Positions 2,531 through 60,671 of a stretch of DNA of 64,000 bases are shown in pieces. Origin of the DNA: Cyanidioschyzon merolae. Lineage: Eukaryota. The notes below the pieces were generated by a model. That model was not told the origin of the DNA, did no database searches, and was given only the letters and a program-made list of their open reading frames with translations. A program made the translations under genes and the position numbers. Location of the stretch: the NCBI GenBank assembly GCA_000091205.1, contig AP006497.2; one strand, 5' to 3'. Positions within the stretch are counted from its first letter, which is position 1. Each line of letters opens with the position of its first letter.

Positions 2531-2951
2531 TACCAGTGCTGCTCCCTAAGCGCTATCCTAACCCAGCGCACAGTGTCTTGAACGGTTTTGTGGTACGCAC
2601 TCGGAAACAGTTGGCGTACCAGTGCTGCTCCCTAAGCGCTACCCTAACCCAGCGCACAGTGTCGTTAACGGTTTTGTGGTACGCACTCGGAAACAGTTGG
2701 CGTACCAGTACTGCTCCCTAAGCGCTACCCTAACCCAGCGCACAGTGTCGTTAACGGTTTTGTGGTACGCACTCGGAAACAGTTGGCGTACCAGTACTGC
2801 TCCCTAAGCGCTACCCTAACCCAGCGCACAGTGTCGTTAACGGTTTTGTGGTACGTACTCGGAAACAGTTGGCGTACCAGTACTGCTCCCTAAGCGCTAT
2901 CCTAACCCAGCGCACAGTGTTGTTAACGGTTTTGTGGTACGTACTCGGAAA
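2531..2951. repeat. 86-bp minisatellite, about 4.9 tandem copies, each containing an inverted repeat GGTACGC…(15 nt)…GCGTACC and a CCCTAACCC motif
   Basis: Direct reading shows the unit 'taccagtRctgctccctaagcgctaYcctaacccagcgcacagtgtYKtKaacggttttgtggtacgYactcggaaacagttggcg' repeating at 2531, 2617, 2703, 2789 and 2875. The two ORF-track entries 2536..2721 and 2622..2807 give identical peptides offset by exactly 86 bp. The period is not a multiple of 3, so the repeat is non-coding. Confidence 0.9.
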
Positions 2952-3042
2952 CGCTCCAGTGGCCGCGTCAGCGTTCGCTGTCCACCTGTGTGCCAGCCCG
3001 TTCAACGAGTGCAGTTCTCTTTTTGAAGATAGAGGCTTCTTT

Positions 3043-5046
3043 ATGCTTCTATTCCAGTCTACACTGGTTCGAGTTTATGTTGTCCGGAGCCCGCCTCGCA
3101 ACCGACAACTGTGTCTCCGCGCTGACTCGAGTCAAGGACGACACCTCCTGGGAGCACGACCTGCACAGCAGACGACGACGACGACAACAACCACTACAAC
3201 TACAACTGCTGCGGCGTCGAGACCGATAACCAAGCTAACAGTATTGCGAGTACAGCAGCGTTTCTGGGAGCGCCATGGAAGCGCTCCAGCGCTGGCTTGT
3301 TCGCAGAGCCCGTTGCAGCCGCACCTGGGCGTCGGTGCAGAGGCTTGCACCCGGCAACGAATCTCAGACCTCAAGCCGAGCGTCGGTGAGCGCCTCCATT
3401 CAGCCTATTATACACGATTGCGGCAAGCTGTGGCGGTAGTTAGAAACTGGGTTTGTGTTGCAAGCGCGCTTCTCTTTGTCTACCTGAGTACCAGCGACCA
3501 GGTGGCCCTGGCGGCTGCCTCACTCGCCAATGGCATGCCTCAAGACCGTCTGGCTCTGGCAACGAGTACGCCCGTTCCAGATCGCTACCGAATTCTTTGG
3601 GAGCAGGCACTGGACATCATCACGAACCTTCACTACCAACCCGGTCAACATATCCATGCAGCCTCGTTAACCATGCCTTCGCACTTGCCGCCTACGCGTG
3701 CGTCCACGATCCCATGGGGATGCTCTCTGGGAACACGTGCCTCGACCTACGATGCCATTCGGATCCGACTCAGTGAATTGAATGATCCCTACTCACGTTT
3801 CCTGGAGCCGGATGAATTTGAGGCGGAACTGAATCCTTACCGGCGAGCTCGGAAGCTCAGCGGGGTCGGCATCATACCGGAGCGCAGTCCAAAAGGCCAC
3901 GGCACGCTGCGCGTTATAGCCGTTATTCCCGAGTCACCGGCTGAGGAGGCCGGAATCAACCCCGGCGATGAACTCGTTATGATTGACGATATTGTCGTCG
4001 AGCCTTCACCTTTGAACCCGATTCCTGTGACCCCCGATGAAGCGTTGGCGTTGCTGCGCGGCCCAGCGGGTACGCGGGTTCGTCTCACTGTGCGACAAAC
4101 GACAAACTCGTTGTCGTACGCTGATGCATCGCTGCAAGTAGCGTCAGCGTCCACAGCGCCGACCTCTATGATGCGTACATATACATTAACGCGGAGACCG
4201 CTTCTGGTAGCTCCGGCTGTCTACGGCCTTGTCGCCGCGGAGCCCACTTTCGGTTACATTCGCCTCCATACCTTCAACGCCGAAGCGACACGTATCGTCT
4301 TCGAGGCTCTGAACGCATTCAAGAATTCTAGCGATCGTTCGGCAGCGGCTGGTGTTATCCTAGACCTGCGCAACTGCCGAGGTGGCGTCTTCCAGGAAGC
4401 ACTGGTGATTGCTTCGATGTTCATCGCAAACCCCGATGCCGTACTCGTCTACACCGTCGACAGTCGGGGTATCGAGCGCGCACACCGGGTGCGTGACCAG
4501 TGGAACGGTTGGCCTGAAGCTCCTGCTGCCGCTGCTCGTACTCCTCGTACTCCTCCTGAGACGCTCGGGAGCGCGGCGTCGGCCCGGCATCCGCTGTACA
4601 ATGGCCCACTGGTGGTGCTCGTCAATGGTGCCTCAGCTTCCAGTAGCGAAGTGCTTGCGATAGCCTTGCGCGATCACGGACGAGCAGTGCTGTTGGGCAT
4701 GCCAACTTTTGGGAAAGCCCGCATCCAACACTACTTCCCGCTTTTGGACGGCTCGGCGATCGCGCTCACTGTCGGGGAGTTTCTCGGCCCGCAGCACGAA
4801 CGCCTCGCGGACCACGTCGGCTTAGTGCCGCAGGTCTCCTGCAACGCTGCACCCCGGAACTTTGCGCTCCTAGAGAGACACACGCCACCAGATGCCTGCA
4901 TCGCAGAGGCAGCTCAGCTGCTAAGCGAAGAACCCACGGGGTCATCGGCTACAGAGCCGGTGCCGGTCGGTGGCTCCGTGCGGTCTGCGTTCACATCCCG
5001 AAGCAGGTCCACTGAAACGACACTGTTGCCTCGGATCCAAACCTGA
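3043..5046 (+). CDS. ctpA: C-terminal processing peptidase (S41A, CtpA-like) with PDZ domain and a plastid/thylakoid-lumen-type N-terminal presequence
   Basis: PDZ segment 'GVGIIPERSPKGHGTLRVIAVIPESPAEEAGINPGDELVMID'. S41 core 'AAGVILDLRNCRGGVFQEAL'. Catalytic Ser/Lys blocks 'LVVLVNGASASSSEVLAIAL' and 'GMPTFGKARIQ' (near nt 4624-4725). The ORF-track start at 2848 lies inside the 86-bp minisatellite, so I prefer the first Met outside the repeat, at 3043. The N-terminus is R/S/T-rich and includes Thr12, followed by the hydrophobic stretch 'WVCVASALLFVYL' and an AxA site 'ALAAAS'. Confidence 0.8.
   Translation: MLLFQSTLVRVYVVRSPPRNRQLCLRADSSQGRHLLGARPAQQTTTTTTTTTTTTAAASRPITKLTVLRVQQRFWERHGSAPALACSQSPLQPHLGVGAEACTRQRISDLKPSVGERLHSAYYTRLRQAVAVVRNWVCVASALLFVYLSTSDQVALAAASLANGMPQDRLALATSTPVPDRYRILWEQALDIITNLHYQPGQHIHAASLTMPSHLPPTRASTIPWGCSLGTRASTYDAIRIRLSELNDPYSRFLEPDEFEAELNPYRRARKLSGVGIIPERSPKGHGTLRVIAVIPESPAEEAGINPGDELVMIDDIVVEPSPLNPIPVTPDEALALLRGPAGTRVRLTVRQTTNSLSYADASLQVASASTAPTSMMRTYTLTRRPLLVAPAVYGLVAAEPTFGYIRLHTFNAEATRIVFEALNAFKNSSDRSAAAGVILDLRNCRGGVFQEALVIASMFIANPDAVLVYTVDSRGIERAHRVRDQWNGWPEAPAAAARTPRTPPETLGSAASARHPLYNGPLVVLVNGASASSSEVLAIALRDHGRAVLLGMPTFGKARIQHYFPLLDGSAIALTVGEFLGPQHERLADHVGLVPQVSCNAAPRNFALLERHTPPDACIAEAAQLLSEEPTGSSATEPVPVGGSVRSAFTSRSRSTETTLLPRIQT
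3172..3207 (+). repeat. (ACG)4(ACA/ACC/ACT)8 trinucleotide run encoding Thr12 inside the CtpA presequence
   Basis: Direct reading: acgacgacgacgacaacaaccactacaactacaact, in frame with the CDS, giving 'QQTTTTTTTTTTTTAAAS'. Confidence 0.9.
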
Positions 5047-6410
5047 CCGAGTTGCGCACCCGTTCGGCAGTCTAGAGCATCCGACAGCACCAGGTTCGCG
5101 TAGTGATCAAAACCGCTGAGTTTTCCGCGCACGCACCTGTTCGCGTTCAGGTACACTTGGACGGAATGAAACAGCAACGCTTCGAGTTCCGCAGTATCGA
5201 CCTCGTCTTTTGCCATAAACCAAGCTGATCAACAACCAACACGACGCTGGTCAAATGCTTGGACGCACGCGGGTTTCCCACAGCCTGCCAAGACGCCGTC
5301 GCAGGGTACCGGCAAACGCACTTGTGTGTATGTTGCTGAGTTGCGCGACGTTTCTGTGCATATCCGAAGCAGGAGCAGCAGTAGTTCCAGCCCAGGAAGC
5401 CTTTCGTTTCGACCTTTCAGGAACGTGTAGTGCGCACGTCGTTTTGACGAAAAGTCACCTTCCCTGCGATAACCGACGACTCAACCTGGACTGCAGGGTA
5501 AAGTCGTTGCAGCGCGTTCGGGTGTACGCGCGAGCTCCACGAGTCGCCAGTGAGTGCCTCGGCATACCTCGACCTCGACGGTGTTCGTTGAACCCAGAAC
5601 ACGAATTCGGGAGCTTGGTTGCCTCAAGGCGAAAGCGAGCGACAGGCACTTCTCGGAGTCTGTGGGTGTTTCTGGTGCCTATCCCAGTCTGTGGCCGGAG
5701 TGTGTCCGTTCGTCCAGTTCAAGCGGAGGTGTACCGAGTGTCTTGAGCAGCGTGCGGACGTCTGGGTGTCACGGTGGCTCTCTGTGGTGCGTCCTGCCTT
5801 CACGGGCGTGATTCAGACTGCACCCGCGAGCATGCGCTACTCACTCGTGCTGCAAACGCCCGCCACCTGCGCAGTGTTGCAGGCGAGAGACAGCGGAACC
5901 TACCGCTATGCGACTTGGCGTTAGGTGCGTAGGTATATGCGTTTATGCGACGGAAGCAACGTTGTTGTCGAGTACCTGCCCGCGGGTTATCTGGGACCGT
6001 GTTGAGATTCACGTTTACGCATTCTCTATATATGCTGCCTTTAGATGAAGCTGCCGCCTAGCCTAGCCAAGCGCATCTCTTCCTAGGCACCAGAACCCGC
6101 TCTGGTCCAAGATATGCACGCGTATCCATTCCCGGCTTTTTGGTGACGCTCAGGGAGTATTCCTTGTCCGGCTGGGTATGCCACTACTTGATCAGCGCTT
6201 TCAAAAGCAGATGCCAGCCCCGCGCACCAGCGCGTCCAGCGTTTACATTACAGGCTTGCACACCGCCGCTACCCGCTGGTATCATACGCCGGTTTGTCTT
6301 CATCGTGAAGCTCTTCGTTCCACGACTTGCTCTACCAGAGTCTCCGATGCCGCGGTAGCATGTCTGGGAATGCTCTACCTCCGGCAAACGCACACACACT
6401 CACTCCTTCA

Positions 6411-6462: not shown

Positions 6463-9400
6463 TCAGGTGCCGCTTTCAAGTGCATCCAATCCACGAACGA
6501 CGTGAACGGACATGTGGACTTTGGTGACGCACGAGTTCGCCAACAGGTGCACTGCTCGCCAAACAACATCCGGCTCGATGTCGCCCAGGTGTTGTACTGG
6601 TCGCCGCAACGCCAGCGCATGCGTATGAGAGAGCAGCAGCGACGGGTGCTGCTGCAGCTCCGAACGGATCCTCTGCAGCGCCATGAGTCGACAAGTGTGG
6701 CACGAATGATCGCCCTGGTCAGCAACGTGTCCATCTTGGGGCGTCTGCTGCTCAGGCGAGGCATCGACGGTATCGCGATCCGCATAGAGTTGGAAGTAGC
6801 CGCGGTAGAGGTGTGCATCCAGGGCCGTGCGAAATGCCTCATCCTCAATGGCTTCCGCGACGCTCAACAGACCCACTACGGCTGCGGGTTGAGAGCCGGT
6901 GATCAGATTCGGCTCTCGATAGTACTTGTGGCGATTGGCAATCACATTTTCGTTGAAAACGGGCGCCCGTGAAATAGCTGTCGCTGTGAAATGCGAAAAC
7001 TCAGCGATGCCGTAGAAGAACAGGGGGTTCGTCGTTCCCGTCTGCAGGTACAGATCATTGAGTACACGTGACCACGGCAGGCCTGCTGGTATTTTCTTGG
7101 AGCCAGCATTGGTACCCTGAACCCCGGTAGGCAATTGCACGCCGGGCGCCTCGTATGATACGTAAAAGTCGGGTACAGCACCCTGGGGCATGCCCAGGAA
7201 CGCGACACTCGAGAGGTACCGTCCACGCACCGTGCGGTAGTACTCGGCTGGTGGCGCCTCAGGCGCTTCCGCTGGGCTTTGCTGCTGATTGCTGGTCCCG
7301 TCGGACGTCGCTGGAGACGTTGCTGCTGGCAGTTCACCGGTCAGCGTACAATACGCAGTCCCGTGAACGATGATGGCTTCACCCATGGTCTCCGGCGGAC
7401 GACCGTCCACGGTGCCCAGCTCAAAACCCGCAATATAGTCTTGGGAATCGATTGGAATCCGCGACAGCGCCTCTACGGACGGTATCTTACCCTCGATGAG
7501 GTTCCGCACGGAGCCCAGCGCTCGTGCTCGGCTGCCTGGCGGTTGTGGTGCATGTGGATGCAGGTTGTAGACCTTGACCGGGCTCTGGTTGGAATCCGGA
7601 CTGGACTCCAGCGGCTCTACCAGGAGTTTCTGGGAGGCGATGCAACCGAAAAAGTCGCCACTGCGCAGTAGCTGCAAAAGATATTCGCGATCCTCAGTTG
7701 ACAACGCGGCGCTCGCGGCAACATCCTCCGTTTCGCCCGCGGATTCAGCGTCCATCCGCTGACGCTGTCGATGCACCATGATAAAGCTGTCGAAAACCTG
7801 GCGGGCAATCCGCATCTCTTCGGGTGAGATGAGTCCGTCGTTGTCCAGGTCAAAGATACTCAACAGCTCCATGTCGCTAGCAGTGAGCGCCTCGGTAGGC
7901 AGGTATTCGGCAATCAGACGCAATACTGGTACCCGGTTGCTTTCCACGGTGGCGTACTCGGCCTTGAGCTCAGGGCTCTCGACCAGATCGATGAGGAACG
8001 AGTGCCGGGCATCGCCTCGTTGCTGTGCAGCAAGAGCGGACTCCAACGCCGCCGGTGCTTCCGCTGGTCGCTGGACGCGGGCGAAGCCCATACGGTACGC
8101 CTGGGCGAGTCGCTGCAAGTCTGGAAGGATGATTTCGTCGCCAGCGACGCCAGTATTCCCAAAGCGTACCCGTCCCATAACGCCGTTGCGGAGGACAATC
8201 ACGACAAGGTTATCGAGGCCCTGCTGCAGGGCAGTTCCAAGTTCCTGTTCAGCCATTTCGAAACCGCCATCGCCAGTGATGAGGTAGACGACACCCTCGC
8301 TTTTGCGTCTCTTCAGCGAGACGCCCATCGAAACGGCAGCCGGAACCGCGTACCCCATACTGCCCATGTTGATGCTGGAAAGCAGACGCGTTCCCTGCCC
8401 ATCGAAACAGAGGCAGAGACCTGCCCAGATGGTAACATCTCCGATATCCACAACCACAACATCGTCTGGACCAAGTTTCGCGGACAAGGCGGTGAGCAGG
8501 TGGCGCGGATGACAGAAGCCGCGTACCTCATCATCGCCCTCGTCAGCGGTATCGTCTGTGTCCAGCATGGAGCGCCTGCCAGTGACCATAGCGTGTGGCG
8601 TTTTGCTCAAAACTGCAGCACGACGCGGCGATGAAGGCAATGAAGCTTGACGCTCACGCCATTCACCGTCTAAAAAGTACTTCCAGAGCCGGCTCGAGTA
8701 GTCCCGGGCCTGTTGAGGGCCCGGCGGCAGCATGCGCTTTGATTGCATCTCCCGCACGCTCGCTGTTAGTGCGCTCAGCAGGGCCTCCAATTCAGGATCG
8801 ATAAGCATACACTCCACATGGTAGTAGACCTGGAGGCGCGTAGCCAGTGTATCGTCTACACCGAATACTCGGACCTGCTGTTGACCAGTAGAATCGAGCA
8901 CGACTGGATCGCAACGATCGACGCCTATCGCCAGAATACACTCGGCAGTGCTGACGAGGGCCCGCGGCGCTGCCATGCCGGGGTTCCCAAAGATCCCGTC
9001 AACACCGAGTACCAGCGGGTGATGCTCATCGACGGCACCCTTGGCGTCCAGTGTGGTAATCACCGGCGCACAGAGCGTTTCTGCGAGTTTCAAAATCGTA
9101 CTCGAGCAACGAGCCTGTGCTGCACGCAACCCGCACAGAATGACGACGCGATGTCCCAGCAGAAGGCGTCCAGCGTGCTCCACGGAAACGGCAGCGCAGC
9201 GCGGTACCTCGGCAATATGAAAGGGAAGGCGAGCCAGGGCGCTCTCGTCTGAGGGCGACGTCTGCACATCTACTGGTATCGCCAGATGTGCTGCTGTGCT
9301 TCGCTCCAGGGCGAAGCGGATAGCCGAGTCCAGCAGAGAAAGGAAGCGATCGGCAGTCATGGGGGCCTTGGCAAACTGGACGCCTGCTCCGTGCATCAGT

Positions 9401-9795
9401 TGTGCTGTTCGGGTGTCCTGGAAGCCCTCGTGTCCGATGTTACTCCGCGACACGAGGCCGCTGAGTAGGAGCACCGGCACAGAGTCCGCAAGCGCATCCA
9501 CCATGCCGCACACGGTGTAGGCGGCACCCGGACCCGAGGTGGTAACGCACACACCCAGCTTCCGATAATACTTGGCGTATGCAGATGCGGCAAACGGTGC
9601 GGCAGTTTCGTTTCGAACGAGAACCCAGTGCAGACGTGGATGCTGCACAATCGCTGTGATAAGAGGACTCGCAGCTGCTCCGTGTCCACCGAACACGAGC
9701 TCCACGTTTGCCGCCGCAAGCCGGTCTGCAATCAGGTTCGCAATGGTGTACGTGCTACCACGACTCGCTGGCATCTTGGAGGTGGTACTATTCAA
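6463..9795 (-). CDS. Thiamine-diphosphate enzyme (acetolactate-synthase/ILVB-like, all three TPP-enzyme domains) fused to a canonical EF-hand and a about 400-aa uncharacterised C-terminal domain (1110 aa)
   Basis: Single 3333-nt ORF. N-terminal TPP_enzyme_N 'ELVFGGHGAAASPLITAI…GVCVTTSGPGAAYTVCGMVDALADSVPVLLLSG'. Central domain 'RVVILCGLRA…PVITTLDAKGAVDEHHPLVLG'. C-terminal TPP-binding fold with 'GSMGYAVPAAVSMG…VVYLITGDGGFEM…NLVVIVLRNGVMG'. EF-hand loop 'DLDNDGLISPEE' at aa about 648-660 (nt about 7816-7854) has D1, D3, D5, G6, I8 and E12 in place. Residues about 700-1110 match no family I recognise. Confidence 0.8.
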   Translation of the reverse strand: MNSTTSKMPASRGSTYTIANLIADRLAAANVELVFGGHGAAASPLITAIVQHPRLHWVLVRNETAAPFAASAYAKYYRKLGVCVTTSGPGAAYTVCGMVDALADSVPVLLLSGLVSRSNIGHEGFQDTRTAQLMHGAGVQFAKAPMTADRFLSLLDSAIRFALERSTAAHLAIPVDVQTSPSDESALARLPFHIAEVPRCAAVSVEHAGRLLLGHRVVILCGLRAAQARCSSTILKLAETLCAPVITTLDAKGAVDEHHPLVLGVDGIFGNPGMAAPRALVSTAECILAIGVDRCDPVVLDSTGQQQVRVFGVDDTLATRLQVYYHVECMLIDPELEALLSALTASVREMQSKRMLPPGPQQARDYSSRLWKYFLDGEWRERQASLPSSPRRAAVLSKTPHAMVTGRRSMLDTDDTADEGDDEVRGFCHPRHLLTALSAKLGPDDVVVVDIGDVTIWAGLCLCFDGQGTRLLSSINMGSMGYAVPAAVSMGVSLKRRKSEGVVYLITGDGGFEMAEQELGTALQQGLDNLVVIVLRNGVMGRVRFGNTGVAGDEIILPDLQRLAQAYRMGFARVQRPAEAPAALESALAAQQRGDARHSFLIDLVESPELKAEYATVESNRVPVLRLIAEYLPTEALTASDMELLSIFDLDNDGLISPEEMRIARQVFDSFIMVHRQRQRMDAESAGETEDVAASAALSTEDREYLLQLLRSGDFFGCIASQKLLVEPLESSPDSNQSPVKVYNLHPHAPQPPGSRARALGSVRNLIEGKIPSVEALSRIPIDSQDYIAGFELGTVDGRPPETMGEAIIVHGTAYCTLTGELPAATSPATSDGTSNQQQSPAEAPEAPPAEYYRTVRGRYLSSVAFLGMPQGAVPDFYVSYEAPGVQLPTGVQGTNAGSKKIPAGLPWSRVLNDLYLQTGTTNPLFFYGIAEFSHFTATAISRAPVFNENVIANRHKYYREPNLITGSQPAAVVGLLSVAEAIEDEAFRTALDAHLYRGYFQLYADRDTVDASPEQQTPQDGHVADQGDHSCHTCRLMALQRIRSELQQHPSLLLSHTHALALRRPVQHLGDIEPDVVWRAVHLLANSCVTKVHMSVHVVRGLDALESGT

Positions 9796-11740: not shown

Positions 11741-13345
11741 ATGCTGACGTCAGCAGCTGACGACTTGTCGTCGGGATATCGGGAGGTAAGGGCGGAGCTG
11801 GGCGAAGCCTTTCGGAGTGGGGCAACACGCTCGCTTCGTTGGCGTGCAGCGCAGCTGGAAGCCCTGAAGCAGGCGCTAGTGGAACAGGAGCGCGCAATCA
11901 TCGCGGCATTAGCTGATGATCTCGGGAAGAGTGCTGAAGAGAGTCAGCTTACCGAGCTACAACCCGCACTCCAGGAACTAGCGTTGGCGCTGGGGAACCT
12001 GAAGCTCTGGGCTGGGCCCCGCACGGTAGAACCCTGCTTAGCACCCAAGTATCTGGCGCCGTGGTTCTGGTTGCAACGTGTTTGGCGCGCGGTGCTTCCT
12101 CGAGTACTGGGCGGTGGCAACCCGCCGGTGGCAAGTTACGGCGGCGTAGCACTGGCGACGATACTGGAGCGTCGCTGGGTCGTTCCTGAACCACTGGGCG
12201 TGGTGCTGATCATCACAGCCTGGAACTATCCTCTACTGCTTGCGATTTGGCATATGACAAGTGCTATCGCCGCTGGGAACTGTGTCGTCTTGAAACCAAG
12301 TGAACGTGCTCCTGCAACAGCAAAACTGCTGGCAGAGCTGGTGCGCACCTATCTCGATGCTCGCTGCATCCGAGTCGTGCTGGGCGATGCCAGCACTGTT
12401 CGGCGTCTGCTTCATCTGGATACCGAGTGTCCGGCGGATGTTGCGTTCCGCGTTTGGGCACAGCAGCGCCCTTTTGATGCGGTGCATTTCACGGGCGGCT
12501 GGAGGATTGGGCGTGAAATCGCACGCGCTTGTGCGGCCTACCTGATACCGTGCACGCTCGAACTGGGCGGTAAGAATCCGCTTGTGGTGGACTGTGCATC
12601 GCTGTCCGAGCGAGACTTGGCTCGGGTTGCCCGAACGACCGCATGGGCCAAGTTACTGAACGTGGGTCAGACGTGCATCGCCCCGGATTATGTGGTTCTA
12701 TGCGGTGCAGACCGGGCACAGGAGGCGTTCTTCATAGAAGAGATGTGGAAATCGATTGAAGCATTCTACGGGAGGCCAGTGGAAAACAGCACGACCTTCC
12801 CACGGATCGTGAGCAAGGCACATACCGCCCGTCTGGCGGACCTGCTCCAACAAAGCCGTGGTGAGGTTGTGTTCGGTGGAACCCACCGAGAGAATGACTG
12901 CTTTTTCACGCCGACCATTGTGCGCAATGTGACTCTGGATGATGCGCTGATGGCGGAGGAGATTTTCGGGCCGATACTGGTTGTTCTGCAGCCGTGTGCT
13001 GGTACCGAACAAGCGCTCGAGGTGATCGGGAGTCTACCATCTCCGCTGGTAGTCTATCTAATGTCTCGTGACGCTGCTGTGGTGCAGCGTTTTGAACGGG
13101 CATCCACCTCTGGATCGCTTGTCGTGAATGATCTGCTGGGTCAGGTAATCTCGCCGGGTCTTCCGTTTGGCGGGGTCGGCGCTTCTGGATACGGCAAGTC
13201 CAAAGGTCAAGCGGGGTTCGATGCGTTCTCGAACCTCAAGAGTGTCCTCTGCAAACCGATATGGATAGAGCGAATAGCGAGTGATCGCTACCATCCACTA
13301 ACCGCTACCAAGATCAGTCGTTTTCGTCGCTTAATCGCGCTCTGA
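11741..13345 (+). CDS. Aldehyde dehydrogenase, ALDH3/fatty-aldehyde-dehydrogenase type (534 aa)
   Basis: Catalytic Glu motif 'TLELGGKNPLVV' (nt about 12560-12580). Catalytic Cys motif 'NVGQTCIAPDYVV' (nt about 12665-12690). Rossmann region 'GGWRIGREIARA'. C-terminal 'EEIFGPIL' fits the ALDH superfamily. Confidence 0.9.
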   Translation: MLTSAADDLSSGYREVRAELGEAFRSGATRSLRWRAAQLEALKQALVEQERAIIAALADDLGKSAEESQLTELQPALQELALALGNLKLWAGPRTVEPCLAPKYLAPWFWLQRVWRAVLPRVLGGGNPPVASYGGVALATILERRWVVPEPLGVVLIITAWNYPLLLAIWHMTSAIAAGNCVVLKPSERAPATAKLLAELVRTYLDARCIRVVLGDASTVRRLLHLDTECPADVAFRVWAQQRPFDAVHFTGGWRIGREIARACAAYLIPCTLELGGKNPLVVDCASLSERDLARVARTTAWAKLLNVGQTCIAPDYVVLCGADRAQEAFFIEEMWKSIEAFYGRPVENSTTFPRIVSKAHTARLADLLQQSRGEVVFGGTHRENDCFFTPTIVRNVTLDDALMAEEIFGPILVVLQPCAGTEQALEVIGSLPSPLVVYLMSRDAAVVQRFERASTSGSLVVNDLLGQVISPGLPFGGVGASGYGKSKGQAGFDAFSNLKSVLCKPIWIERIASDRYHPLTATKISRFRRLIAL

Positions 13346-14625: not shown

Positions 14626-15567
14626 TTACACATGCAACCTGAAGAGCATGCGCAGAGCGCGCTCGCCCAGGAGCAGCACGTCATTGCAGGAGACGGCTCT
14701 GGGCATGGAAACGGAGCAAGGCATGGTAGGGAGCCCTCTGGATCCGTCAAGGGCATGTAACGAGCGATGAAGCGAGCCTTGACGTGCTGCAGGACGGCGC
14801 TCGAAAGATGAAGAGGTGTGTTGGATACATAAGTGCACTTGACAGCATGCACATGTTACCGCTTTGAAGCGCGCACCGGGCTCTACACAAAAGGAAACGA
14901 AAACGACAAGCGAAGCGTAACGCAACTTTCGTCTGTGTATAAAATGCGCCGTTGACAGCAACCGGAATCGGGGAAAGCGGAGCTTGAACGCCTCCAGCAA
15001 CATGCTTCGACTGCTGACAACGGAGCTTGAGGAAAACCCGAAACCAATGTATTCAGACCTTGATCTATGAGAGCACGAAAAGGAAGCACTCACAGCACAG
15101 TCCCGCAACATCTGGTTTTGATGACAGCCGCAAGAGCCCTCGACTTGCGTGCATACGCCCGAGATCGCCGCGTGCACCTCTTCCAAGTTCACGCTGACAC
15201 AGGCGTCGTCTAGGTGCTCGAGGACGGCATTGCTCTGCCCGCAAGCCGCATGCCCATGCAGTGCATACAAGCTCTTCCAAATCGTCACCTGTACGTAAAA
15301 ACAATACCAGCATTTCTCTATGGAGATTACGGTCACTATCGTTTCCGAGGCAAGTGCGTTGTCTCCATCTGCAGGAACGCTGGGGGCGCTCCCTTCTGGC
15401 TGCTCGATCGCTCGCCTCGCCCGGTGCGGGAAACTTATACCGGCCGCTTTGGCAACCAGCGGCGCGAGCGCAGCCCAACGTCGCCGCTGGCGTTGCGCTT
15501 GCTGCTGGTCAGGCCTGGAACTACTTCCAGGCAGCGGCACGAACCTCCGGGCGCCTGCAGAAGACAC
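14626..15567 (-). CDS. Hypothetical ORF (313 aa), low-complexity, with no recognisable domain; may not be a real gene
   Basis: This is the longest ORF in the 13.4-15.8 kb gap. Its only support is length and a Cys/His-rich segment 'CGQSNAVLEHLDDACVSVNLEEVHAAISGVCTQVEGSCGCHQNQ'. I see no conserved motif. Confidence 0.15.
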   Translation of the reverse strand: MSSAGARRFVPLPGSSSRPDQQQAQRQRRRWAALAPLVAKAAGISFPHRARRAIEQPEGSAPSVPADGDNALASETIVTVISIEKCWYCFYVQVTIWKSLYALHGHAACGQSNAVLEHLDDACVSVNLEEVHAAISGVCTQVEGSCGCHQNQMLRDCAVSASFSCSHRSRSEYIGFGFSSSSVVSSRSMLLEAFKLRFPRFRLLSTAHFIHRRKLRYASLVVFVSFCVEPGARFKAVTCACCQVHLCIQHTSSSFERRPAARQGSLHRSLHALDGSRGLPTMPCSVSMPRAVSCNDVLLLGERALRMLFRLHV

Positions 15568-32171: not shown

Positions 32172-33473
32172 CTAAAAAGTGACATCATGGCAAAGCCGCG
32201 ACTTCTCTGCGAGCCAGACACACCAGCTGGACACCGCTGTAGTTTCCAGTGAACGGACATGGGTGTCGGGGCCGAGCCATTGTCGCGCCTGGGCAGCGAC
32301 TTGCTCCGACTCCGTCGTGCGTCGTCGACCGTTCCATTCCATATGTGCGAGCAGCTGCGCGTACCGCACCAAAGCGCCAATGTAGAGAACCTGATGGCTC
32401 GCTGGACTCAGCGCTGGACACTGCTGCTGCTGCTGCTGCTGCTCTCCTGGCTTTGAAGTACCAGAGTGTCCCGACAGCGAGCGTTGCGGAGGTGCACGCT
32501 CGAGACAGGCGCGATACAGACCTTCCGCAATGACGGGATCTCTGCGGACCTGCCAGTAAAAATTTGCCAACGCAGTGAGCGGAATTAGGGCAAAACCCGG
32601 ATGCTCCGTTTCTTTGGCCCTGCTCAGAGCTTCAGTCAGCATGGATTCGCACTGCTCGTCGTCAAAGGACAGCGAAGCTGTTACTTGCGGCCGCTGTGTG
32701 CGCCAGAACGCCACGCTGGCGTTTTCTGAAAGTGCTACCACCTTGCCAAACAGCCGCATGTCGCTGTGGTTACCCGCTGGTGGCGACTCGTGCTCAATAT
32801 GTGTCAATGCAGCCTGGAGCATATCTTCCGAGTGCAGAGCTGCACCAAGCGATAACAGCGCCCGTCCGAGAAGTGCGCTTCCACTGGCGGACGCTCTCAG
32901 CTCGTCCAGGAACCGCTTGGCGTCGGACACAAGCCTCGCGTGGATCTCTCTAGAAGCGGCGTCTGCGGAAGGATTCCCGGCATACAGCTGTTGTGCTCGG
33001 CTCAGCAGCGAAAACAGATGGACCCCACTCTTGAGGAGGCCTCTGGGCGACTCCCTATCGCTGATCGTGCCGGTCATACGCGAGCACCTCGTGGAATGCC
33101 AATCGCCCAGCTGCACCGTTCGCAAACACTGCACCAGGAACTGCTGACTATTCCAGCATGCCATGCTATCCAGATAGAAATCCTCTCCACTTCGTTGAAG
33201 CGCGACCCATGCTTTGCGGTAAAAACGAAGAGCGCGGCTGATGCCTGCTCTCGTTGACCAAGAGTCAAGCGTCGCAACGTGTGCATACAGTGCTGCCGCA
33301 TCCAGACTGTGCTGAGGAAGCTTCTGTACGACAGCTACCACGCGCTGGAGCGCACGCTCACTTCCGTCCGATAACTCTGGGAGACGCTCTGCTTGAGCCA
33401 GAGCACGCGCAAAGGCAGCAGAGCGTGCTTTCGGTCGGAGCACCTGGAGCCAGCTTTGACTCTGGGCACTCAT
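32172..33473 (-). CDS. Hypothetical protein (433 aa), predicted α-helical/TPR-like, with a Q7 tract encoded by (CTG)8 at 32421-32444
   Basis: Long single ORF in a GC-rich, codon-like context. Helical-repeat-like composition (A/L/R-rich, e.g. 'ALRFYRKAWVALQRSGEDFY', 'LANFYWQVRRDPVIAEGLYRACLERA'). No family-specific motif recognised. Confidence 0.5.
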   Translation of the reverse strand: MSAQSQSWLQVLRPKARSAAFARALAQAERLPELSDGSERALQRVVAVVQKLPQHSLDAAALYAHVATLDSWSTRAGISRALRFYRKAWVALQRSGEDFYLDSMACWNSQQFLVQCLRTVQLGDWHSTRCSRMTGTISDRESPRGLLKSGVHLFSLLSRAQQLYAGNPSADAASREIHARLVSDAKRFLDELRASASGSALLGRALLSLGAALHSEDMLQAALTHIEHESPPAGNHSDMRLFGKVVALSENASVAFWRTQRPQVTASLSFDDEQCESMLTEALSRAKETEHPGFALIPLTALANFYWQVRRDPVIAEGLYRACLERAPPQRSLSGHSGTSKPGEQQQQQQQCPALSPASHQVLYIGALVRYAQLLAHMEWNGRRRTTESEQVAAQARQWLGPDTHVRSLETTAVSSWCVWLAEKSRLCHDVTF

Positions 33474-35162: not shown

Positions 35163-37490
35163 TCAGATGCTTCCTAAGAAGAAATGCGGCAGAGTCCTCT
35201 GGTTAGCTTCAATGCAACCCAGGAGTATCGCTGGTGTTGGCATCCCGCATCCGAGTGCGAGTCCCGACACTGTACCGCGACCTCTGGGCAGTCCAAGCAT
35301 CTCGTCCAATATCCACGATGCGGAAAGGGGCACGCTTGCGTCGTCCAGCGCGGTACACTTTGTATCCCTGCCCGGAATCGATAGATCGAAGAGGCAGAGG
35401 TGCGCGCAATCATTCTGATCAGTAAGCGGGCAGGCAAGCAGCACCGTTCCATGATGCGTATCGGCTCGTATACTGGGCCGAATGTTGTTACCGAATCGCC
35501 ATGAGGTATATCGCAGCGATGCCGACTCTTCCCCAATTGATTGCAGGTACTGTGCGGCGGGATATCTGTACTCGTGAGAGAGGATCGAGTTCAGGGGTGC
35601 GCTCGTTGTATGTAGCGCTGAGGTAGCCTGCGGCAGTGCGCCAGGTATTGCAGGCTGCTCCAGTCTCGCTTGCAATGGGCTGCTTTCGAGCCCCGATGCG
35701 ACTGAGCTGCTGTTTCGAGCAAGCGTAATCAATAGATTTCTTCGGTATTCTTGTTCGCAAGCGTTGCTAGAATTAGGGAATCTGGCGAAAGGTGCGGCAG
35801 ACGACAGGATCCGCCCATCCTCCGCCGCCGCTCGATACGGTCGCGTAGCGCACGTTGCCTCCGTTTCTGGTTCAAAGCACCAGCGAAGGCGCAAAGGTCC
35901 ATTCCATGACGTGGACGCGCCTCGTTCAACGCTTTGCCCAAAGGCCTGACGGTCGATATCCAAAATTGCGCATCGCCGGAAAGTCGGCGTTGTCACCGCA
36001 AGCGAAAGACAGTCGGGATGTTGGGCGTCTTCCGGTAGCGGTTGGATAGAAGAAAATCGACAAGGTGTTGGGAAGCGCGCTATCATCGTCGTATTTGTGA
36101 CGGTTTCGTATGCGTCCCATAGATGCGCAGTCGAAGCGCTCGTACCTCCTCGGTATTGTTTGGCAAAGGATCCGCCAGATTCCTGGCGATTTTGTCCAGA
36201 GGTATTCCATGGGGATTTCGAGGAACCTGGACATACCTGTGGCCCGAGTCCGACGCCGATTTGCCCCAAGACGGAGGCTGCACTGCTCGTAAGAGAATTC
36301 GTGCTGAGCATGCGGGCGTCATGGAGCTGCAAAACGTCAGTGTAGACAACGCCAACTAGTGTGGGCGCAAGCCGATGGTGGCTGCTCCAGATGCCAACTG
36401 GCATCGACGCATGGCCATGTGTCCTGTCCCGAATGAGGAAGCGTGCAAATCGACGCCAGTCAGGACGCTCCCTTTGGTCCATGATCCCTGCGAAAGGCCC
36501 ATCGCGGTTACAGCCACATAGCAGCATGAGAGTTGGGTGCGGATCCGAGAACGCTGCAGCGTCTGTGTACCAGGCGGCCGCCTGGATCCTACTCGAGCTT
36601 GCGGCGGGCAACGAAAAATGCCAGAAAGGCGCTATAGGCGACGGCTGCTCAGGGGCAGTCCACGGGTGAATCCCGGAATCGGTGCGCTCCAGACTATAGA
36701 CGCCCAAAGCTCGATTCGTCCAGGCCAAGAGCTTTCCCTCGGAGCGCGTCGACTGCCACTGAATGCCGCCCCAGAGGTCAGGGGATGCACTGCCCTGAAT
36801 GCCTTGGTCGCCGAATCGGCGCTGTAATCCGGGCCTGACATTGCCCGATCCACTACTCCCATTACCACCACTACTACTGGTTGAGGGCGGCATCAAGTAC
36901 CCCATGACATGCCAATGTTCCATGCTGGCTGCTTGACGGATATTCCAGAGAAACGCGGACTCCGCCGTACAACAAGCGACGAGCGCAACGTCAGGGTGTG
37001 TATCTAGGGCACGCAACATCCCCTGGCCGTTGTGGAGCGGCCGACGCGCTGCCGTCAAGCGCTCGCGCGTATACCACGCTTCGCCACGTGTAGCGGAGAG
37101 CGCTCGCCACTGCCATGCTTCGCGTTTAGCGCAGGTTCGTTGGTACCAGACGCGTCGCGCGTCGGCGTGGAGTGCACTCCTGGCTGTACACTCACGCTGC
37201 TCCATCCGAGTAACGGTACTGCTCATGTCGGTTGACGGATGGACAACCGCAAGTTGGCAACCGCGGCGCCATGCGCTGCGTTGCTGCTGACAGTTAACGG
37301 CAGCAGCATTTGGAGTAACAACGGCGAGTCGGACGCCAGAAAGAACATGCGCAGGCGCTCTGATGCGTTTTTCGGGTCTCCGCTTCATGGGAGCTGTGTC
37401 TATATTTGTACAGTTTGCCGCTCGGTGCCGGAAAAACGACCGCACCGGCATGTTACCAACGTGAGCATCAGCAGCACCAGCGGCCTCCAT
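35163..37490 (-). CDS. Hypothetical protein (775 aa), possibly WD40/β-propeller-like
   Basis: Uninterrupted 2.3-kb ORF. Scattered W-D/W-N dipeptides in β-strand-like contexts ('HLWDAYETV', 'FLWNIRQ', 'LLAWTNRALGVYSL') and Gly/Ser-rich linkers. No confident family assignment. Confidence 0.45.
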   Translation of the reverse strand: MEAAGAADAHVGNMPVRSFFRHRAANCTNIDTAPMKRRPEKRIRAPAHVLSGVRLAVVTPNAAAVNCQQQRSAWRRGCQLAVVHPSTDMSSTVTRMEQRECTARSALHADARRVWYQRTCAKREAWQWRALSATRGEAWYTRERLTAARRPLHNGQGMLRALDTHPDVALVACCTAESAFLWNIRQAASMEHWHVMGYLMPPSTSSSGGNGSSGSGNVRPGLQRRFGDQGIQGSASPDLWGGIQWQSTRSEGKLLAWTNRALGVYSLERTDSGIHPWTAPEQPSPIAPFWHFSLPAASSSRIQAAAWYTDAAAFSDPHPTLMLLCGCNRDGPFAGIMDQRERPDWRRFARFLIRDRTHGHASMPVGIWSSHHRLAPTLVGVVYTDVLQLHDARMLSTNSLTSSAASVLGQIGVGLGPQVCPGSSKSPWNTSGQNRQESGGSFAKQYRGGTSASTAHLWDAYETVTNTTMIARFPTPCRFSSIQPLPEDAQHPDCLSLAVTTPTFRRCAILDIDRQAFGQSVERGASTSWNGPLRLRWCFEPETEATCATRPYRAAAEDGRILSSAAPFARFPNSSNACEQEYRRNLLITLARNSSSVASGLESSPLQARLEQPAIPGALPQATSALHTTSAPLNSILSHEYRYPAAQYLQSIGEESASLRYTSWRFGNNIRPSIRADTHHGTVLLACPLTDQNDCAHLCLFDLSIPGRDTKCTALDDASVPLSASWILDEMLGLPRGRGTVSGLALGCGMPTPAILLGCIEANQRTLPHFFLGSI

Positions 37491-59819: not shown

Positions 59820-60671
59820 CTAGAGGAAAATCCAGGGCGATATGTCAAAATCGACGCCGCCTAAACATGGTACCGTAAACTGCAGCACCAATGCGACAAC
59901 AAGCGGTATAAGCAGATTGTCGTCCAAGGCGAAGGGAAACCATCGAAGTGGCAAGGTCCTCTGCGGCGACGGCGTAAGCCATTCCGCGAGCATCGCCGCA
60001 GCGCTCGGTACCAAGCAATTCAGCCAGAGACAGAGCGTGTTCCCGGGACGGAGACTGCTCGCACGGAACACGACGAACATAGTGAGCGTCGCGGCTGCGA
60101 AACCCGCCACGCTCCCTACCAGCGACTTGTTGTGCCGAGCACGGGTAGAATGATCTAGTTCTGGTATATAGCGTCGCACCATATTTCCCACTAGTGCAGC
60201 AACCGGATCTGAAACGGACAGAACGACAATGGCTATGATTGCGACACCCTTGGGGTAGAGAGCGATAGTTATTAGCGCTCCAAGTATAAAGGGCACCATA
60301 CCGCTGAACCGGTGCTGCTCTTGGCTGCGCATAAAAGGTCCCATCAAAACCATAACGAGGGCGTTGAGCCGAGGGTTGAGGAGTCTCATTATTTCCAAGA
60401 AGAGCTGAGCAGTCCAAAGCACAGCCAAAGTTGTCAAGAAGACTCGTTTTGAAGAGAACGAGCGGAACGCCAGCACGAGCAAGTAGCCGTTCAAGAAGTG
60501 GAACAAGCGACGGTTCCAGTGCAGTGCCTGGGTCTCCGCCAACCTTTTCCGAACGGTTGCGCTCCCTCCAACGGCCGACACTGCTGGACTTGTTCGGCGC
60601 TGACGCCTCTGGGCGGGCGCCGCGTCACCACCCATGGTGTCTTCTCTGTTGCTGACCAGGAGCATCGTCAC
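59820..60671 (-). CDS. Small polytopic membrane protein of the CTP-dependent polyprenol-kinase family (phytol-kinase VTE5 / dolichol-kinase / DGK1-like), 283 aa
   Basis: About 6 hydrophobic segments (e.g. 'LFHFLNGYLLVLAF', 'VFLTTLAVLWTAQLFL', 'MVPFILGALITIALY', 'VAIIAIVVLSV'). The C-terminal conserved-looking block 'VSDPVAALVGNMVRR…HNKSLVGSVAGF' resembles the 'GDxxAxxxG…K(S/T)xEG(S/T)xA' signature of this family. Assignment rests on motif resemblance only. Confidence 0.5.
   Translation of the reverse strand: MTMLLVSNREDTMGGDAAPAQRRQRRTSPAVSAVGGSATVRKRLAETQALHWNRRLFHFLNGYLLVLAFRSFSSKRVFLTTLAVLWTAQLFLEIMRLLNPRLNALVMVLMGPFMRSQEQHRFSGMVPFILGALITIALYPKGVAIIAIVVLSVSDPVAALVGNMVRRYIPELDHSTRARHNKSLVGSVAGFAAATLTMFVVFRASSLRPGNTLCLWLNCLVPSAAAMLAEWLTPSPQRTLPLRWFPFALDDNLLIPLVVALVLQFTVPCLGGVDFDISPWIFL

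What the first reader, a model, noticed from the sequence alone, without database searches (positions are those of the whole stretch)
6463..7700. Uncharacterised C-terminal domain (aa about 700-1110) of the TPP-enzyme fusion
This segment is a long, compositionally ordinary stretch in a compact genome and is not low-complexity. It includes 'GTTNPLFFYGIAEFSHFTATAISRAPVFNENVIANRHKYYREPNLITG' and an H/C cluster 'DQGDHSCHTCRLMALQ', and I cannot assign it to any family. It is a candidate novel domain attached to a metabolic enzyme.
Basis: seen in the sequence. Interest (0 to 1): 0.5.

Follow-up and report, generated by a model that had tools for sequence, protein, structure and literature searches.

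The report
Hidden acetolactate-decarboxylase-like domain on TPP enzyme
The unassigned tail of this red-alga thiamine enzyme folds like acetolactate decarboxylase, the enzyme that follows acetolactate synthase in bacterial acetoin production, so the protein may carry out both steps in one chain.

The parts
6463..9774 (-). Complete CDS (1103 aa plus stop) of the C. merolae protein BAM81666.1. Architecture: TPP enzyme, EF-hand, linker, ALDC-like domain.
   Evidence: ORF list. Exact-sequence look-up. Coordinates checked by translation. The same full-length architecture is found in Cyanidium caldarium (1064 aa) and in P0074 (987 aa; 33% identity over 1019 aa, E=4e-128).
8026..9747 (-). TPP-dependent enzyme module (aa 10-583) with TPP_enzyme_N, _M and _C domains. 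It is a divergent member of the acetolactate synthase / pyruvate oxidase superfamily. It is not an AlsS or IlvB equivalog.
   Evidence: Pfam E=1e-28, 2e-14 and 1e-20. The best NCBIfam score is 188 bits against cut-offs of 500 or more. It is 23% identical to Legionella AlsS. The closest PDB sequences are catabolic ALS, PoxB and pyruvate oxidase.
7783..7878 (-). Single EF-hand (aa 633-664). The loop DLDNDGLISPEE (aa 642-653, window 7816-7851) fits the canonical DxDxDGxIxxxE pattern.
   Evidence: Sub-threshold Pfam EF-hand hits (17.5 bits against 25.9). The sequence was read directly. The equivalent loop is present in the Cyanidium, P0017, P0043, P0074 and P0079 fusions. Weak calmodulin and CDPK hits in the PDB.
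7579..7698 (-). Conserved linker (aa 693-732) with the helix REYLLQLLRSGDF and the motif LLVEPL. It may be a degenerate partner of the EF-hand.
   Evidence: A helix is modelled at aa 694-705. The motif recurs in the P0016, P0017, P0018 and P0074 fusions. The pairing with the EF-hand is inference only.
6466..7578 (-). ALDC-fold domain (aa 733-1103).
7378..7413 (-). The GFELGT...GE motif. T788 (7411-7413) and E799 (7378-7380) align with ALDC Thr58 and Glu65.
   Evidence: Profile alignment. E799 is E in 52 of 56 relatives and D in 3. G798 is conserved in 55 of 56. Position 788 is S or T in 49 of 56. Roles of Thr58 and Glu65 are described in PMC9090609.
6619..6627 (-). HxH motif (H1050, H1052) on a beta-strand. 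These are the predicted first two metal ligands.
   Evidence: H1050 is conserved in 56 of 56 relatives and H1052 in 55 of 56. They align with ALDC H194 and H196. The strand is modelled at aa 1046-1056.
6547..6549 (-). H1076, the predicted third metal ligand, on the following strand.
   Evidence: Conserved in 56 of 56 relatives. It aligns with the H207 of ALDC's GGH motif once a 13-residue family-specific insertion is allowed.
6640..6792 (-). Insert specific to the eukaryotic fusions (aa 995-1045).
   Evidence: The insert is a gap in 50 of 56 relatives. C1025 and C1028 are not conserved in Cyanidium. Only H1026 is shared. pLDDT is 50-53 for aa 993-1022, followed by a helix of moderate confidence.
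7249..7329 (-). Low-complexity P/A/S/Q-rich insert (aa 816-842) inside the ALDC-like domain.
   Evidence: Alignment occupancy is about 0. pLDDT is 57-62.
7087..7143 (-). Second short insert (aa 878-896).
   Evidence: Alignment occupancy is about 0. pLDDT is below 50 at model residues 188-197.

Best explanation
The C-terminal ~370 residues (aa 733-1103) form a highly divergent alpha-acetolactate-decarboxylase-fold domain. It belongs to a previously unnamed family with a conserved His-x-His...His triad and a Glu.

Shown:
- The fold.
- The conservation pattern and its alignment to ALDC's zinc ligands and Glu65.
- A family of stand-alone bacterial proteins.
- Their position next to the catabolic acetolactate synthase gene alsS.
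- The conservation of the whole TPP, EF-hand, ALDC-like fusion across distant sequences.

Inferred:
- The domain binds a divalent metal through H1050, H1052 and H1076.
- It decarboxylates the 2-aceto-2-hydroxy acid made by the N-terminal TPP module. Two pyruvate would give alpha-acetolactate plus CO2, and then acetoin plus CO2.
- The polypeptide would therefore be a one-chain version of the bacterial alsS-alsD pathway.
- Fusion would hand the unstable intermediate directly to the second active site, limiting its spontaneous oxidation to diacetyl.
- The canonical EF-hand in the linker could make this flux respond to Ca2+.
- The protein starts directly with the TPP_N domain, with no presequence, so it is probably cytosolic.
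- The branched-chain-amino-acid ALS of red algae is plastid-encoded, so this nuclear gene is probably catabolic or fermentative rather than biosynthetic.
For: Fold:
- Model of the C. merolae tail: pLDDT 83.9, pTM 0.85.
- The 14 best Foldseek hits are all ALDC, probability 1.00, TM-score normalised to the target 0.64-0.72.

Active site:
- hhalign aligns T788, E799, H1050, H1052 and H1076 with ALDC Thr58, Glu65, His194, His196 and His207.
- These are the most conserved columns of the family: 56/56, 55/56 and 56/56 for the histidines, and 52/56 for Glu.
- Their roles in ALDC are described in PMC9090609.

Gene context:
- In five bacterial loci from different 50%-identity clusters (L001, L004, L006, L007, L010), the stand-alone gene overlaps, abuts or lies one gene from a gene scoring 708-790 bits for AlsS. 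The curated cut-off is 510 bits.
- No PF03306 gene is visible in those loci.
- In L010 the cluster is alsS, NAD-malic enzyme, then this gene.

Fusion as a functional link:
- The same TPP and ALDC-like architecture occurs in Cyanidium and in P0074, P0079, P0043, P0017 and P0069; all but P0069 also carry the EF-hand.

Biosynthetic ALS is elsewhere:
- The red-algal ALS large subunit is plastid-encoded (PMC3518814).
Against: - No sequence model of ALDC (PF03306) matches any of the 70 family members.
- BLASTP against 4BT2 finds nothing.
- The profile-profile probability is only 18%. Homology therefore rests mainly on structure prediction.
- ALDC's Arg145 aligns with a Thr. A K/R lies four residues later, in 45 of 56 relatives.
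- The C-terminal tail that carries ALDC's Glu253 has no counterpart. The chemistry may differ.
- I could not inspect model coordinates, so the clustering of the three histidines in space is not verified.
- The algal TPP module is not an AlsS orthologue (23% identity; below every NCBIfam cut-off). Its product is unknown.
- One bacterial locus (L009) shows no alsS in the 5.8 kb available.
- I found no report of acetoin production by C. merolae.
Confidence: 0.6

Rival explanations
1. The domain has the ALDC/PTD012-type fold and binds a metal, but it catalyses a different reaction. It could be an ester hydrolase like human PTD012/C11orf54, a racemase or isomerase, or a decarboxylase acting on another beta-keto or alpha-hydroxy acid made by the divergent TPP module. 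It would not form acetoin.
Against: ALDC scores clearly higher than PTD012 in both models and with both programs. Bacterial members sit beside a bona fide AlsS, whose only known product is acetolactate. The Glu65 and Thr58 equivalents are conserved.
Confidence: 0.22
2. The domain is a non-catalytic sensor or regulatory module. It would be a pseudo-enzyme that binds a metabolite or metal and, together with the EF-hand, controls the activity or oligomerisation of the TPP module.
For: Fusion to a Ca2+-binding motif suggests regulation. Two ALDC catalytic residues are missing. C. merolae and Cyanidium carry large inserts inside the domain.
Against: The His triad and the Glu are conserved almost perfectly across 56 very divergent sequences (20-30% identity). 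These include stand-alone bacterial proteins with no partner domain to regulate. That pattern is typical of an active site.
Confidence: 0.1
3. One reading: a novel domain, or a lineage-specific tail, whose H/C cluster DQGDHSCHTCRLMALQ forms a metal site.
For: No Pfam or NCBIfam hit. The cluster contains 2 His and 2 Cys within 6 residues.
Against: The cluster lies in an insert absent from 50 of 56 relatives. Both Cys are substituted in the closest orthologue. The surrounding segment has pLDDT of about 50. The domain as a whole has a known fold.
Confidence: 0.03

Closest known systems
Alpha-acetolactate decarboxylase AlsD/BudA (EC 4.1.1.5; Pfam PF03306; PDB 4BT2-7, 1XV2, 5XNE, 5YHO, 6INB)
   Same: - Same size for the stand-alone members (255-300 aa).
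- HxH...H triad, Glu and Thr/Ser at the aligned positions.
- Bacterial genes sit next to alsS.
   Different: - 10-17% identity, and no PF03306 hit for any member.
- A 13-residue insertion lies between the second and third His.
- Arg145 is not at the aligned position, and there is no C-terminal tail with Glu253.
- The family has its own conserved motifs: IGxVxDVI, GFExxSP, PIxGENIF, YY and LYxNP.
- In C. merolae the domain carries three inserts and is fused to other modules.
Bacterial alsSD / budAB acetoin operon (catabolic acetolactate synthase plus ALDC)
   Same: A TPP carboligase is paired with an ALDC-fold protein. In the Legionella loci the order alsS then ALDC-like gene, with overlapping stop and start codons, mirrors alsS-alsD.
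   Different: In C. merolae the two activities are on one polypeptide, joined by an EF-hand linker. The TPP module is not an AlsS orthologue. I found no report of a natural ALS-ALDC fusion.
Human PTD012 / C11orf54 (PDB 1XCR), a zinc-containing ester hydrolase of the same structural superfamily
   Different: Lower structural similarity than ALDC. PTD012 is longer (313 aa). It has no known link to TPP enzymes.
PPC / DUF296 (AF0104-like) single-lobe proteins (PDB 3HWU, 2DT4, 2P6Y)
   Different: They are half the size and lack the HxH...H site in the same arrangement. They are only distant relatives.

Membership tests
Alpha-acetolactate decarboxylase (PF03306, AlsD/BudA) | Sequence match to the Pfam AAL_decarboxy model | tested here: not met
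   No hit for the C. merolae tail at E<=10. No hit for any of 70 family members at E<=0.01. All 120 canonical ALDCs retrieved carry PF03306.
Alpha-acetolactate decarboxylase (PF03306, AlsD/BudA) | ALDC three-dimensional fold | tested here: met
   [not shown]
Alpha-acetolactate decarboxylase (PF03306, AlsD/BudA) | Three-histidine Zn site (B. brevis His194, His196, His207) | tested here: met
   H1050, H1052 and H1076 align with them. They are conserved in 56/56, 55/56 and 56/56 relatives. The spatial geometry in the model could not be inspected.
Alpha-acetolactate decarboxylase (PF03306, AlsD/BudA) | Conserved Glu65 and Thr58 near the metal | tested here: met
   E799 is E in 52/56 relatives and D in 3. 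Position 788 is S or T in 49/56. Both sit at the aligned columns. Their roles are described in PMC9090609.
Alpha-acetolactate decarboxylase (PF03306, AlsD/BudA) | Conserved Arg145 that contacts the substrate | tested here: inconclusive
   The profile alignment puts Thr932 at this column. A K/R (R936) is present four residues later in 45 of 56 relatives. A structural superposition is needed to decide.
Alpha-acetolactate decarboxylase (PF03306, AlsD/BudA) | C-terminal tail Glu253 that completes the active site | tested here: not met
   The family ends shortly after the last strand. No aligned counterpart exists.
Alpha-acetolactate decarboxylase (PF03306, AlsD/BudA) | Genomic pairing with the catabolic acetolactate synthase gene alsS | tested here: met
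   Five of six informative bacterial loci show the pairing. The AlsS calls are above the curated cut-off. L009 shows none.
Alpha-acetolactate decarboxylase (PF03306, AlsD/BudA) | Catalysis of acetolactate to acetoin plus CO2 | not testable with these tools
   This requires an enzyme assay.
Catabolic acetolactate synthase AlsS (NCBIfam NF006378 / TIGR02418), for the N-terminal module | Score above the curated equivalog cut-off | tested here: not met
   168 and 137 bits against cut-offs of 510 and 551. It is 23% identical to Legionella AlsS.
TPP-dependent enzyme superfamily (ALS / POX / PDC type) | TPP_enzyme_N, _M and _C domains in order, the GDG...N Mg-TPP motif and a cofactor-activating Glu | tested here: met
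   All three Pfam domains score above their gathering thresholds. GDGGF...LRNG and RNE are visible in the sequence. Assigning roles to these residues relies on general knowledge of the family.
EF-hand | 12-residue Ca2+ loop DxDxDGxIxxxE flanked by helices | tested here: inconclusive
   The loop DLDNDGLISPEE fits the consensus. Pfam scores are below threshold for a single hand (17.5 against 25.9 bits). No clear second hand was found.

The most novel reading that the evidence does not exclude
The unnamed ALDC-fold family is a second, independent lineage of acetolactate-processing enzymes. It replaces AlsD in Legionella-like bacteria. In red algae and other protists it has been welded to a novel TPP carboligase and a Ca2+ sensor. 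The result would be a calcium-gated, substrate-channelling synthase for acetoin or a related C4/C5 ketol. This would be a eukaryotic neutral-fermentation or volatile-signal pathway that has not been recognised. Alternatively, its altered active site (no Arg145 and no Glu253 equivalents) may perform new chemistry on the TPP product.
Probability: 0.2. Interest if true: 0.7.

Novelty: new variant of a known kind. Interest (0 to 1): 0.55.

Why it matters
- It gives a testable function to a protein annotated only as "similar to acetohydroxy acid synthase".
- It gives a testable function to a set of bacterial "hypothetical proteins", for example Legionella londiniensis WP_058529649.1, that no sequence library names.
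- If the activity is confirmed, genomes that carry alsS but appear to lack alsD would have the missing step filled.
- Cyanidiales and some other protists would gain a cytosolic pyruvate-to-acetoin route. This could matter for redox and pH balance in an acidophile.
- A natural fused, possibly Ca2+-controlled ALS-ALDC enzyme from a thermophile would interest acetoin and 2,3-butanediol engineering, where such fusions are built artificially.
- It also shows that the ALDC superfamily is wider than PF03306.

Tried and rejected
- The word-indexed homologue search on the tail and on the family profile returned nothing useful. These results are not evidence of absence.
- A PDB sequence search with the tail gave only weak EF-hand noise.
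- A PDB profile search with alignment A1 was contaminated by TPP columns from the fusion proteins. It returned only TPP enzymes.
- Pairwise BLASTP of the tail against 4BT2 found no signal.
- hhalign in global mode misaligned the termini and was discarded. Local mode was used instead.
- The search for related loci rejected both family alignments as too divergent. With a single Legionella protein it found only the same species.
- The afdb50 fold library was unavailable.
- Literature searches found nothing on this gene or family. The queries were Cyanidioschyzon + acetoin, Legionella + ALDC, Legionella + ALS + acetoin, and ALS-ALDC fusion + algae.
- The H/C cluster as a metal site was considered and rejected.
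- A gene-model artefact joining two genes was considered and rejected. The ORF is uninterrupted, and the same fusion occurs in Cyanidium and in a 3.45-kb single-gene contig.

Full report
**1. What is at the coordinates**

The window is nuclear DNA of the red alga Cyanidioschyzon merolae 10D. The minus-strand ORF 6463..9795, read from the ATG at 9774, is identical to BAM81666.1/XP_005537702.1. That 1103-aa protein is annotated "similar to acetohydroxy acid synthase, large subunit" and lies on a 902,900-bp record.

- GTTNPLFFYG...NLITG is aa 913-960.
- DQGDHSCHTCRLMALQ is aa 1019-1034.

Pfam finds TPP_enzyme_N, _M and _C in the first ~585 residues, and a sub-threshold single EF-hand at about aa 636-655. 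The loop DLDNDGLISPEE fits the canonical Ca2+-loop pattern. Nothing in Pfam or NCBIfam matches aa 693-1103, even at E<=10. The observation of a long, unassigned, ordinary-composition C-terminal region is therefore correct.

**2. Relatives**

Two word-indexed searches failed for technical reasons. The exhaustive phmmer scan of 1.84 billion representatives with aa 693-1103 found 69 proteins at E<1e-3.
- The best hit is a 1064-aa Cyanidium caldarium hypothetical protein with the same architecture (56% identity over the tail, E=3.6e-93).
- Several other hits, named by no source, are also TPP-enzyme fusions, most with an EF-hand: P0017, P0043, P0069, P0074 and P0079.
- P0074 (987 aa) aligns with the C. 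merolae protein end to end: 33% identity over 1019 residues, E=4e-128. The fusion is therefore old and is not an assembly artefact.
- Most hits are stand-alone proteins of 255-300 aa. One cluster includes Legionella londiniensis WP_058529649.1, "hypothetical protein".
- None of the 70 sequences hits any Pfam domain in this region.

**3. Conservation pattern**

In a 56-sequence domain alignment (A2) the invariant or near-invariant residues, in protein numbering, are:

| Residue | Conservation |
|---|---|
| H1050 | 56/56 |
| H1052 | 55/56 |
| H1076 | 56/56 |
| G798 | 55/56 |
| E799 | 52/56, plus 3 Asp |
| P938 | 55/56 |
| Y951 | 51/56, plus 4 Phe |
| Y990 | 54/56, plus 2 Phe |
| S/T788 | 49/56 |
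| K/R936 | 45/56 |

In Cyanidium both cysteines and one of the two histidines are replaced. The two other poorly conserved stretches, aa 816-842 and 878-896, are also inserts.

**4. Fold**

AlphaFold2 with the 70-sequence alignment gave a confident model of aa 693-1103. Mean pLDDT is 83.9 and pTM 0.85, and the low-confidence parts coincide with the three inserts.
- Foldseek agrees. Its 14 best hits are all ALDC structures, E=3.8e-7 to 1.8e-4.

**5. Sequence-level link to ALDC**

I recovered the 4BT2 sequence and 120 canonical PF03306 proteins and aligned 45 of them (A3).
- Profile-profile comparison of A2 with A3 gives a weak but colinear match: probability 18%, E=1.3e-3, 176 columns.
- With greedy extension the alignment covers 230 columns. 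It pairs GFELGT/GE with ALDC's GLGT...DGE, so T788 matches Thr58 and E799 matches Glu65.
- It pairs H1050 and H1052 with His194 and His196.
- After a 13-residue family-specific insertion, it pairs H1076 with His207.
- According to PMC9090609, these are the zinc ligands and two of the conserved active-site residues of ALDC.
- Two other ALDC residues are not reproduced. Arg145 aligns with Thr932, although K/R936 is nearby. The C-terminal tail bearing Glu253 is missing.
- I could not inspect model coordinates, so the three-dimensional clustering of the triad is inferred, not shown.

**6. Genomic context of the stand-alone relatives**

Seven look-ups gave six informative bacterial loci.
- In L004 (Legionella londiniensis) and L006, the gene directly follows a 551-aa TPP-enzyme gene, with overlapping stop and start codons.
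- In L001 and L007, it directly precedes such a gene.
- In L010, the same-strand cluster is TPP enzyme, NAD-malic enzyme, then this gene.
- All five TPP enzymes score 708-790 bits against the NCBIfam AlsS equivalog, whose cut-off is 510. They are catabolic acetolactate synthases.
- No PF03306 gene appears in these loci. The new family occupies the place normally held by alsD.
- L001 also has pyruvate dehydrogenase E1/E2 genes upstream.
- L009 shows no alsS in the 5.8 kb available, and L011 is too short to judge.

**7. Interpretation**

Shown:
- The tail is an ALDC-fold domain of an unnamed, widely scattered family.
- The family keeps a His-x-His...His triad and a Glu at ALDC's active-site columns.
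- Its bacterial members are operon partners of AlsS.
- Its eukaryotic members are fused to a TPP carboligase-type module.

Inferred:
- The domain is a metal-dependent decarboxylase for the 2-aceto-2-hydroxy acid produced by the TPP partner.
- The C. merolae protein would then convert pyruvate to acetoin within one polypeptide.
- The EF-hand might offer Ca2+ control.

Supporting the catabolic reading:
- The TPP module keeps the cofactor motifs (RNE, GDGGF...RNG), but it is not an AlsS or IlvB orthologue. Its exact product is uncertain.
- The red-algal biosynthetic ALS large subunit is plastid-encoded (PMC3518814).
- This protein has no N-terminal extension.

**8. Novelty**

The fold and the alsS-alsD logic are well known. 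The following are not named in Pfam or NCBIfam and were not mentioned in any paper my searches returned:
- A sequence family that PF03306 does not detect.
- Its apparent substitution for AlsD beside alsS in Legionella-like bacteria.
- Its natural fusion to a divergent TPP enzyme through an EF-hand in Cyanidiales and in other, probably eukaryotic, sequences.

I rate it a new variant of a known kind, of moderate interest. It becomes more interesting if biochemistry shows Ca2+-gated channelling or altered chemistry.

Noticed in passing
window 7816-7851 (-), aa 642-653: A canonical EF-hand loop, DLDNDGLISPEE, sits in the linker between the TPP module and the ALDC-like domain. It is conserved in most of the other fusion proteins (DLSGDGMLTPEE, DVDGDGMLSADE and others) but missing in P0069. 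Only one clear hand is present. The following helix, REYLLQLLRSGDF, might be a degenerate partner.
   Followed up: partly
window 2848-5046 (+) and 4914-5216 (-): An S41 / PDZ C-terminal-processing peptidase ORF and an LSM-domain ORF converge, and their reading frames overlap by about 130 nt. The long N-terminal part of the peptidase ORF, including a poly-Thr run, may lie upstream of the true start.
   Followed up: no
window 11741-13345 (+): An aldehyde dehydrogenase family ORF (Pfam E=2e-73) is the divergent neighbour of the fusion gene, about 1.9 kb from its start codon. Whether the two are co-regulated is unknown.
   Followed up: no
window 14626-15567 (-), 32172-33473 (-), 35163-37490 (-), 59820-60671 (-): Four ORFs of 283-775 aa have no Pfam match at E<=1e-5. 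These are further unassigned proteins in the same window.
   Followed up: no
L010:686-4897 (GCA_050250135.1): A same-strand cluster of alsS, then NAD-dependent malic enzyme, then the ALDC-like gene. The overlapping gene ends suggest a malate to pyruvate to acetolactate to acetoin module.
   Followed up: partly
window 9775-9795 (-): The mechanical ORF begins at a TTG, 7 codons upstream of the annotated ATG at 9774. The annotated start is the one present in the public protein.
   Followed up: yes
tool behaviour: The word-indexed protein search could not recover the query's own 90% cluster for this region, because only the 8000 candidates sharing most words are scored. The exhaustive HMMER scan was needed. 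'No homologues' from the indexed search would have been a false negative.
   Followed up: yes
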